This document shows positions 52,090 to 53,298 of a DNA stretch of 64,000 bases, in pieces; positions within the stretch are counted from its first letter, which is position 1; every line of letters starts with the position of its first letter. The translations under genes were made by a program, and so were the position numbers. The DNA is from a virus: positions 26,045-90,044 of the IMG/VR virus record IMGVR_UViG_3300044818_000015; one strand, 5' to 3'. Under the pieces are notes generated by a model. The model ran no database searches. It was not told the DNA's origin and was given only the letters and a program-made list of their open reading frames with translations.

Positions 52090-53298
52090 TTGGGGTTTGA
52101 GCACATACTGAATGCTCAAGTGAATTGGATTATCTATACGCTAAGCTGCCCGCGCACTAAGGCGGTTCGGTATGTGGGATGGACGCGGCAGAGCGCCGAA
52201 GCTCGGCTGAACGCTCATATTTACGATTCCCTGGAATCGCACAGAACACACAAGCAGCGATGGATTTGCTCTCTGGTAGCCATCGGATTGCGTCCTACCG
52301 CCGAAACGATTGAATCCGGTTCCGGCGAGGGCTGGCAGGACGCGGAGCGGCGCTGGATTGCTTGCTATAGAGCCAATGGTGCGCGCCTGGTCAATGGCAC
52401 GGACGGTGGCGACGGCATTGTCGGATGGGGTACTCCGGAGTTGCGAAGCGCGTCCGCGAAGGCGAGGGCCGCACGCACCACACCAGAGCAATGGGCTGCG
52501 ATGACCGAAAAGCGGATGATGAAAAGTACGCCCGAAGAGCGCAGTGCGTCCGCGAAACGGGGAAGTGCTACGCTTACGCCCGAGCAGCGCAGCGCAAGGT
52601 CCAGAAAGGGACAGGACAGCTTCACGCCAGAGGAGCGAAGCGCGAGAGCCAGGCACGCCCACGCGAATTCTACCCATGAGGAACGCAGCCAAAGAGCCAA
52701 GGAGATTCAGGCGCGGTTTACTCATGAGGAACGGAGCGCGAGGTCGGTAGCGGCGCATGCAAGGCGGAGCCCCGAACAGAGACGGGCGATAGCGGCCAAA
52801 ATATCGGCGAGTAAGACTCCAGAGCAGCGTAAAGAGATCGGCGCGAAGATGGTTGCCGCTAAGACGCCCGAGCAGCGTAGTGAGGCGAGCAGGAAAGCGG
52901 CAAGAACAATGGGACCAGAACGGCGGAGCGCAGTCGCACGTAAACGCTGGGCCAGCTTCACTCCAGAGCAGCGGAGCAGCATGCCGAAATCGGGCGTCGG
53001 CGCCATGACGTTTGAGCAACGGAGCGCTGCATCGAAAAAGCGGGTAGCCAATTCGACTCCCGAAGCTAGAAGCGCCGCCGGCAAAAAGGGCTTCGCGGGA
53101 ATGACGCTTGAACAACGAACAGCCAGGGCGGTAAAGCGGGCTATGTCTATGGATCACGAAAGACTTGCCGCCGCCGCACGCAAGCGCCAGGCCGCTAAGA
53201 CTCCTGCGCAGCGTAGCGAGTCGGCTCACAAGGCTTGGGCGAGCAAGCGCGCGCAGTCGCTTGCTGCGGATAACAATGCGCGTCACTTGGGCGCCTGA
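52090..53298 (+). CDS. GIY-YIG endonuclease fused to 17 x 16-aa helical repeats
   Basis: IIY...RYVG.T....R...H, E..WI, N.T.GG catalytic pattern; repeats at 52432-53247; start may be GTG 52120. Confidence 0.85.
   Translation: MGFEHILNAQVNWIIYTLSCPRTKAVRYVGWTRQSAEARLNAHIYDSLESHRTHKQRWICSLVAIGLRPTAETIESGSGEGWQDAERRWIACYRANGARLVNGTDGGDGIVGWGTPELRSASAKARAARTTPEQWAAMTEKRMMKSTPEERSASAKRGSATLTPEQRSARSRKGQDSFTPEERSARARHAHANSTHEERSQRAKEIQARFTHEERSARSVAAHARRSPEQRRAIAAKISASKTPEQRKEIGAKMVAAKTPEQRSEASRKAARTMGPERRSAVARKRWASFTPEQRSSMPKSGVGAMTFEQRSAASKKRVANSTPEARSAAGKKGFAGMTLEQRTARAVKRAMSMDHERLAAAARKRQAAKTPAQRSESAHKAWASKRAQSLAADNNARHLGA

What the first reader, a model, noticed from the sequence alone, without database searches (positions are those of the whole stretch)
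52090..53298. GIY-YIG nuclease with a gap-free array of 17 x 16-aa repeats
Seen: from 52432 to 53247 exactly 17 contiguous 16-aa units (TPELRSASAKARAART, TPEQWAAMTEKRMMKS, TPEERSASAKRGSATL ... TPAQRSESAHKAWASK), with conserved [TS]PE[QE]RS cap and variable later positions. Established: GIY-YIG homing endonucleases use modular C-terminal DNA-binding units. Inference: a superhelical modular DNA-recognition array, possibly with a per-repeat code analogous to TALE/PPR proteins. The gene is free-standing, antisense, and overlaps the portal 3' end by 16 nt.
Basis: partly seen in the sequence, partly recalled or inferred. Interest (0 to 1): 0.8.

Follow-up and report, generated by a model that had tools for sequence, protein, structure and literature searches.

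The report
Phage nuclease with 17-helix DNA arm
A soil phage carries a selfish DNA-cutting gene whose tail is 17 copies of an unnamed 16-residue helix that is widespread on phage nucleases and probably wraps around DNA, but nothing yet shows a simple TALE-like reading code.

Summary
In detail: 17 gap-free 16-residue units (52432-53247) follow an intact GIY-YIG domain of the I-TevI fold. The gene behaves as a free-standing homing endonuclease. It has its own conserved promoter-like site (start probably GTG 52120). Relatives sit antisense at many different late-gene junctions, and one related phage lacks it at this junction. The unit is predicted to be one 14-residue helix plus a 2-residue linker. 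It is not NUMOD3 beyond its cap, and no library searched names it. A profile finds 956 protein clusters, fused to several GIY-YIG subfamilies, HNH nucleases and helicases, including cultured cyanophage S-PM2 ORF178. Closest analogue is the animal STPR DNA-binding repeat (23 residues), which looks like this unit plus two helical turns; homology is unproven. Variable positions lie on one helix face between conserved basic residues, as in a groove-reading helix. But units are only 39% alike, position 12/13 shows 122 residue pairs, and arrays turn over fast, which argues against a TALE-like code. The scan noted similar helix arms of other periods (15, 17, 19/23, 23) on other DNA. DNA binding and cleavage are inferred, not shown.

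The parts
52076..52109 (+). Conserved promoter-like site: GAACC, hexamer TAGTAA (52081-52086), 17-nt spacer, hexamer CATACT (52104-52109); predicts a leaderless or very short-leader mRNA
   Evidence: Pattern drawn from these loci is present upstream of 11 of 16 repeat-bearing homologues and 0 of 118 GIY-YIG homologues without the repeat; alignment of 13 upstream regions. The generic sigma-70 scan does not call it. Function inferred.
52120..52431 (+). GIY-YIG nuclease domain, from the likely start codon GTG 52120
   Evidence: Best structural match is the I-TevI catalytic domain 1ln0: Z 10.2, rmsd 2.3 over 86 residues. Y16, Y28, G30, R39, H43, E86, N102 invariant in 15 aligned sequences; homologues hit PF01541.
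52432..53247 (+). 17 x 16-aa repeat array, each unit a T-P-E-capped helix; net charge +36
   Evidence: AlphaFold2 gives a 13-14-residue helix per unit, unit 12 broken (proline at position 9), units 15-16 fused, mean pLDDT 88.9, pTM 0.44.
53200..53298 (+). Terminal unit 17 and short tail; unit 17 resembles the array-ending motif K[AGV][WH][EA][TS][RK][RK]
   Evidence: The motif follows the last capped unit in 30 of 199 repeat-bearing proteins; the window's version differs at one position.
53283..55637 (-). P22-like portal gene; its last 16 nt overlap the nuclease gene's 3' end
   Evidence: PF16510 E 4e-149; coordinates.
51559..52035 (-). 158-aa gene on the other side of the insertion; directly coupled to the portal stop in a related phage
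   Evidence: In L007 the 74%-identical homologue starts at 7265, overlapping the portal stop at 7268, with no nuclease between.

Best explanation
A free-standing GIY-YIG homing endonuclease cassette (promoter plus gene) has inserted, antisense, between the portal gene and the next late gene of a 90-kb P22-like, probably temperate soil phage. It is transcribed from its own promoter. The 17 short basic helices fold onto DNA one after another along a groove, as STPR helices do. Conserved R5 and K/R10-K11 would clamp phosphates, while the variable face (positions 8, 9, 12, 13, 16) would touch bases. At roughly 3 bp per unit (scaled from STPR's 4 bp per 23 residues) the arm could cover about 45-50 bp. 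Recognition is probably sequence-tolerant, a mix of shape and some base preference, and it tethers the non-specific GIY-YIG head to cut nuclease-free alleles of co-infecting relatives, so the cassette is copied in by repair. Arrays are retargeted by unit duplication, loss and swapping between nuclease heads. Shown: sequence, repeats, catalytic residues, fold of the head, varied insertion sites, an empty site, module swapping. Inferred: expression, DNA binding, groove, bp per unit, cleavage, homing.
For: Head: I-TevI fold and intact catalytic residues. Mobility: 10 of 10 repeat-bearing viral loci L015-L024 are antisense to flanking late genes at different junctions, as are L172, L173, L266; three copies lie on one 26.5-kb contig. 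None of 9 portal loci has a GIY-YIG hit, and L007 shows the empty junction. GC3 0.64 against 0.77 and 0.78 for portal and terminase. Arm: occupies the slot that NUMOD3 fills in sister nucleases, and 11 proteins carry both unit types; fused to several nuclease and helicase heads. Unit lengths other than 16 fall on helical turns: of 65 spacings of 11-27 other than 16, 46 are 19, 20 or 23 and none is 14, 18 or 22. Variability moment points along R5 at 100 degrees per residue, flanked by basic positions 10 and 11 (82% K/R each; 591 units). Both ends of the unit resemble STPR in the 5d23 alignment.
Against: No binding, cleavage or expression data. STPR similarity is statistically weak: Pfam PF21107 in 6 of 120 and 1 of 109 proteins, all under the cut-off; phmmer E 3; structure Z 3.3, rmsd 8.3, rank 31. 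The moment direction shifts from -36 to +26 degrees between 95 and 105 degrees per residue, and R5 and E3 were fixed by the pattern used to collect units. Only 1 of 9 portal loci shows the portal-158-aa adjacency, at 67% portal identity, so the insertion boundaries could not be mapped. The target site is unknown.
Confidence: 0.68

Rival explanations
1. The array is a true modular reader: each unit specifies about three base pairs through positions 8/9/12/13/16 in a predictable, largely context-free code.
For: Variable positions on one face between conserved basic residues; covariation 12-13 (z 13), 13-16 (z 10), 6-10 (z 9), 8-12 (z 4) against within-protein shuffles. One ordered 8-9-unit array is kept in eight cyanophage-type proteins and across two different nuclease heads: 28 of 28 pairs beat all 100 order shuffles; identity at positions 8, 9, 13, 15, 16 is 0.65-0.81 between orthologous units against 0.15-0.26 between units of one protein. 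By the 5d23 alignment, position 13 falls on STPR Leu21, which touches thymine methyls (PMC4856987).
Against: 122 different 12/13 pairs in 591 units, the top six only 32%. Those eight arrays were picked by eye for likeness, so shared ancestry alone may explain them, and their variable positions (0.57-0.91) drift more than the heads (0.78-0.96). Runs of near-identical or alternating units in L259, L260, L264, L265 would have to read repetitive DNA. STPR's main readout is shape (PMC4856987).
Confidence: 0.17
2. The array is a non-specific, histone-H1-like basic tether or spacer; any specificity comes from the GIY-YIG head.
For: Low-complexity A/R/K/S/E composition, net +36; weak HC2 and H1-like hits under cut-off in some homologues; heads 82-96% identical carry order-unrelated arrays in 7 of 8 comparisons, and the window array is order-unrelated to 12 of 12 homologues tested; also found on helicases and non-nuclease heads.
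Against: Strict 16-residue period with a helical-turn ladder, one-sided variability, a specialised last unit, and no other DNA-binding domain in this protein. GIY-YIG homing nucleases rely on the C-terminal part for binding (PMC3664794, passages).
Confidence: 0.17
3. The cassette is a moron-like gene expressed from the prophage that cuts competing phages or satellites (defence or interference) rather than homing.
For: Own promoter-like site, antisense to the late operon; the genome holds integrase-like and resolvase-like ORFs, named by eye from their sequences.
Against: No PADLOC hit for 5 of 5 proteins; scattered insertion at gene junctions and multiple copies per genome fit selfish spread; T4 segD is a homing-type gene lying antisense between capsid genes (PMC2988022, passage). 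The two roles are not exclusive.
Confidence: 0.12

Closest known systems
I-TevI, I-BmoI and T4 Seg free-standing GIY-YIG homing endonucleases (PF01541; PMC2988022, PMC3664794)
   Same: N-terminal GIY-YIG domain with the I-TevI fold and catalytic residues; C-terminal basic arm; intergenic and free-standing; segD is likewise antisense between capsid genes.
   Different: The arm has no NUMOD3, helix-turn-helix or zinc finger; it is 17 copies of one unnamed unit. Unlike segD, for which no promoter was found, this family shares a conserved promoter-like site, and antisense is the rule.
STPR domain of Bombyx mori FMBP-1 (PDB 5D23, 5D2Q, 5D2S; PF21107; PMC4856987)
   Same: Tandem single helices with a 2-residue linker, a T/S-P-E-Q-R type cap, an arginine at the same offset, similar basic C-terminal end; no hydrophobic core.
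   Different: Period 16 (variants 12-13, 19-20, 23) instead of strictly 23; up to 17 units instead of 3-7; units diverge strongly within a protein; phage nucleases rather than animal regulators; sequence and structure scores are not significant.
NUMOD3 (PF07460), minor-groove helix of I-TevI, I-BmoI, I-HmuI
   Same: Short basic helical repeat in the same slot behind GIY-YIG heads; cap S/T-x-E-x-R/K; both can occur in one protein.
   Different: Period 17 with a near-invariant glycine at 14; positions 6-16 score no better than shuffles against the other profile; hhalign probability 0.8%.
TALE and PPR repeats (recalled, not tested against sequences)
   Same: Gap-free tandem array with constant and variable positions.
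   Different: TALE units are near-identical two-helix hairpins with two variable residues (recalled); here one helix, 39% identity, six variable positions.
T5orf172 homing endonucleases of ICP1-like phages with repeated zinc-finger domains (PMC10448857)
   Same: Repeated binding modules, recombination between repeats, swapping of arms between nuclease heads.
   Different: Those modules are independently folded zinc fingers; these are single helices.

Membership tests
GIY-YIG nuclease superfamily | GIY-YIG fold | tested here: met
   1ln0 Z 10.2, rmsd 2.3, 86 aligned; next hits also GIY-YIG
GIY-YIG nuclease superfamily | Catalytic Tyr, Arg, His, Glu, Asn conserved (their roles recalled from I-TevI) | tested here: met
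   Y16, Y28, G30, R39, H43, E86, N102 invariant in 15 sequences; invariant or at least 90% in 58
Free-standing homing endonuclease | Intergenic gene, absent from the same junction in relatives | tested here: met
   Empty junction in L007; no GIY-YIG hit in 9 of 9 portal loci
Free-standing homing endonuclease | Relatives at many unrelated sites | tested here: met
   Loci L015-L024, L172, L173, L266
Free-standing homing endonuclease | Site-specific cleavage of the nuclease-free allele and biased inheritance | not testable with these tools
   Needs protein and phage crosses
NUMOD3 (PF07460) | Match to the NUMOD3 profile; 17-residue period with Gly14 | tested here: not met
   No hit for the query, 0 of 109 repeat proteins; likeness confined to the cap
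STPR (PF21107) | Strict 23-residue period | tested here: not met
   417 spacings of 16 against 5 of 23
STPR (PF21107) | Sequence homology to STPR | tested here: inconclusive
   Best 24.4 bits against cut-off 27; phmmer E 3
STPR (PF21107) | One helix plus 2-residue linker per unit, Thr/Ser cap | tested here: met
   AlphaFold2 models
STPR (PF21107) | Zig-zag of helices along the DNA major groove | tested here: inconclusive
   DNA-free model matches 5d23 at Z 3.3, rmsd 8.3, 61 aligned, 23% identity, rank 31; no DNA modelling available
TALE-like code proteins | Near-identical repeats with two hypervariable residues (recalled) | tested here: not met
   39% identity; six variable positions, 122 pairs at 12/13
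TALE-like code proteins | Residue-to-base correspondence | not testable with these tools
   No target sites known
Known anti-phage defence systems | Match to a PADLOC model | tested here: not met
   0 of 5 proteins

The most novel reading that the evidence does not exclude
The 16-residue unit is the smallest natural modular DNA reader: one helix per roughly three base pairs, with positions 8/9/12/13/16 forming a usable code. Together with 12-, 19/20- and 23-residue variants it would form a ladder of groove-tracking helices linking phage homing nucleases to animal STPR domains, and this 17-unit protein would read about 50 bp and serve as a compact programmable nuclease scaffold.
Probability: 0.17. 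Interest if true: 0.88.

Novelty: new variant of a known kind. Interest (0 to 1): 0.55.

Why it matters
Homing endonucleases with repeated binding modules are known, but this module is unnamed in the libraries searched although a profile finds it in 956 protein clusters at 50% identity. It gives a concrete model for how these nucleases retarget: units are duplicated, lost and moved between heads. A 16-residue single-helix unit is half a TALE repeat; even a loose code would interest protein engineers. It is directly testable, because a cultured phage (S-PM2 ORF178, beside F-CphI between psbA and psbD) carries four units, and natural arrays differing by single units exist.

Tried and rejected
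Pfam, NCBIfam and PADLOC give nothing for the query; PHROGs gives only phrog_12127, unknown function. PDB sequence hits to the designed protein HeliScrew4 (an 8-residue repeat sharing the cap) and to trefoil designs were judged compositional. Foldseek found no match for the six-unit model; VIA-align best Z 4.4, none at 5. ESM Atlas best score 0.83 (DUF7167, NUMOD3 at 0.78), leads only; DUF7167 hit 1 of 109 proteins under cut-off. KGG repeat (recalled resemblance): not listed for any of 120 homologues at E 0.1. P63C N-terminal motif (recalled resemblance): one fetched example looks like a single unit but scores 0.3 bits, inconclusive. A hairpin just 5' of the GTG is no better than shuffles (z -0.24) and is not conserved. 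A 15-nt promoter-core scan was mostly chance: 1 plausible new case among 118 matches examined. No RNA holder listed; laying runs X1 and X2 showed no joint skipping the gene. DNA alignment to the empty site could not fix insertion ends. No dN/dS test: DNA was held for only two of the orthologous arrays. PMC548367 (original STPR paper) is not held. Literature searches that found no description of this repeat: (listings only); the library lacks most subscription papers, including the original NUMOD description, and no supplements were read.

Full report
Observation. The ORF 52090-53298 (+) is real. Seventeen contiguous 16-residue units run from 52432 to 53247; autocorrelation peaks at lags 16, 32 and 48 with z 14.5-16.9 against 500 shuffles; units average 39% protein and 47% DNA identity, net charge +36. 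The region lies in one contig of run X1, which may be the source, and two short pieces of run X2 match parts of the array without differences. The gene overlaps the portal 3' end by 16 nt on the opposite strand. The genome is a 90,044-base virus record with a 127-base terminal overlap, P22-like portal and terminase. The host is not established; one homologue is labelled Acidobacteriota and one Nevskia soli.

The head. The query hits no Pfam or NCBIfam model, but 233 homologues were found and many of the 120 scanned hit PF01541. The AlphaFold2 model matches the I-TevI catalytic domain best (Z 10.2, rmsd 2.3, 86 residues). The expected catalytic residues are invariant in 15 close sequences. Homologues start at the residue encoded by GTG 52120.

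A mobile cassette. Of 77 viral loci, ten (L015-L024) carry the repeat. All ten are antisense to flanking genes, at different junctions: portal 3' end (L017, L021), portal 5' side (L022), major capsid 3' end (L019, L023), next to the small terminase (L016), an antiterminator (L020), ejection, tail-fibre and head-completion-type genes. L172, L173 and L266 are the same. Four metagenome loci with few or no scored units (L093, L095, L096, L100) lack the upstream motif and sit in other contexts, L095 co-oriented. L018, L022 and L024 lie on one 26.5-kb contig. Among 9 portal loci none has a GIY-YIG hit, and in L007 the portal stop overlaps the start of the 158-aa gene, the empty form of this junction. 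Upstream, a hexamer-17 nt-hexamer motif sits 6-11 nt before the start. A pattern drawn from these sequences matches 11 of 16 repeat-bearing homologues and 0 of 118 others; being drawn after the fact, only the control is a fair test. PMC2988022 (passages) describes T4 free-standing endonucleases, their distant cleavage sites, and antisense segD with no promoter found.

The unit. Both models give one helix per unit with 2-3-residue linkers, pLDDT 87-89 and low pTM (0.44, 0.42), so the relative placing of helices is undetermined without DNA. A six-unit profile finds 956 clusters at E 0.001 and 411 at 1e-10 among 1.84 billion representatives; some weak ones may be compositional, and only the best 150 were seen. 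Of the 109 new proteins, 26 hit GIY-YIG, 5 LEM-3-type GIY-YIG, 1 T5orf172, 2 HNH, 5 superfamily-2 helicases, none NUMOD3. Among 199 repeat-bearing proteins held, this one has the longest gap-free run (17; next 11; median 4). S-PM2 ORF178, between F-CphI and psbD, has four scored units; PMC6083498 (term search) does not mention it. Spacings other than 16 cluster at 19, 20 and 23 (46 of 65), with none at 14, 18 or 22: units grow by helical turns.

Not NUMOD3, like STPR. Against 36 NUMOD3-type 17-mers the likeness is confined to the cap; positions 6-16 score as shuffles, and hhalign gives 0.8%. I-BmoI has three predicted NUMOD3 minor-groove repeats (PMC3664794, passages). STPR (PMC4856987, parts 2-4 of 5 read) is a 23-residue unit of 2-residue linker plus 21-residue helix; each helix covers 4 bp of the major groove, Arg6, Arg9 and Arg20 bind phosphates, Met13, Ser14, Ala17, Tyr16 and Leu21 touch methyls, and readout is mainly by shape. 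In the alignment to 5d23 both ends of the STPR unit resemble this unit, which reads as STPR lacking seven central residues (by eye). The statistics are weak: E 3, Pfam hits under cut-off in 6 of 120 and 1 of 109 proteins, structural Z 3.3 at rank 31, though with the highest identity (23%) of the 50 rows. It works like STPR, probably; it is not a member by period.

Is there a code? In 591 distinct units from 187 proteins the most variable positions are 13, 8, 16, 12, 15 and 9; at 100 degrees per residue they centre on the R5 face, with basic positions 10 and 11 on either side and alanine 14 behind. That suits a groove-reading helix. Positions 12-13, 13-16 and 6-10 covary, which duplication of units could also produce. 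One ordered array is kept across eight proteins and two head types, with one unit duplicated and one lost in P0082. Against a simple code: 122 pairs at 12/13; heads 82-96% identical with order-unrelated arrays in 7 of 8 cases; the window array order-unrelated to 12 of 12 homologues; runs of near-identical units. The 8 pairs involving the 3-unit L262 were not significant. Arm swapping and repeat recombination are already described for T5orf172 homing endonucleases (PMC10448857, section 23 read).

Novelty. Searches found no description of this repeat or of STPR on homing endonucleases (listings only; subscription papers and supplements not seen). Earlier notes of this scan report helix arms of 15, 17, 19/23 and 23 residues on other phage nucleases; they are unchecked leads, read after the STPR comparison was made here. 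Verdict: a new variant of a known kind, an unnamed and widespread helical arm on a mobile nuclease, with a modest chance of a usable code. Interest 0.55.

Noticed in passing
L337:1500-2233: The same promoter-like cassette precedes an unrelated cysteine-rich, HNH-like ORF, here co-oriented in a tail operon; the cassette may be shared between nuclease families.
   Followed up: partly
L006:7150-8717: A related phage has a frameshifted, DNA-methyltransferase-like insertion (named by eye) at the portal 3' end; the junction looks like an insertion hotspot.
   Followed up: no
L015:6006-6818: A second antisense nuclease gene (HNH, phrog_374) lies one gene away from the repeat-bearing GIY-YIG.
   Followed up: no
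L257:3195-3824: S-PM2 ORF178, annotated hypothetical, is a nuclease-like protein with four units of this repeat, next to F-CphI between psbA and psbD.
   Followed up: partly
P0098, P0129, P0133, P0143, P0203, P0207: Superfamily-2 helicases ending in arrays of this repeat, and many non-nuclease heads with cysteine clusters; what the arm does there is unexplained.
   Followed up: no
L282:1-2866: A P63C-domain protein begins with one unit-like motif by eye; HMM score only 0.3 bits.
   Followed up: partly
L002:3938-4858: A GIY-YIG relative with a different helical repeat of about 19-20 residues (W..PE.R type by eye), not matched by the 16-residue profile.
   Followed up: no
window 7323-26948 (-): A 6541-aa ORF in the virion gene region, not examined.
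   Followed up: no
window 51099-51241: Collagen-like Gly-X-Y repeat in the 747-aa gene, one of several long late genes with signal-peptide-like N-termini.
   Followed up: no
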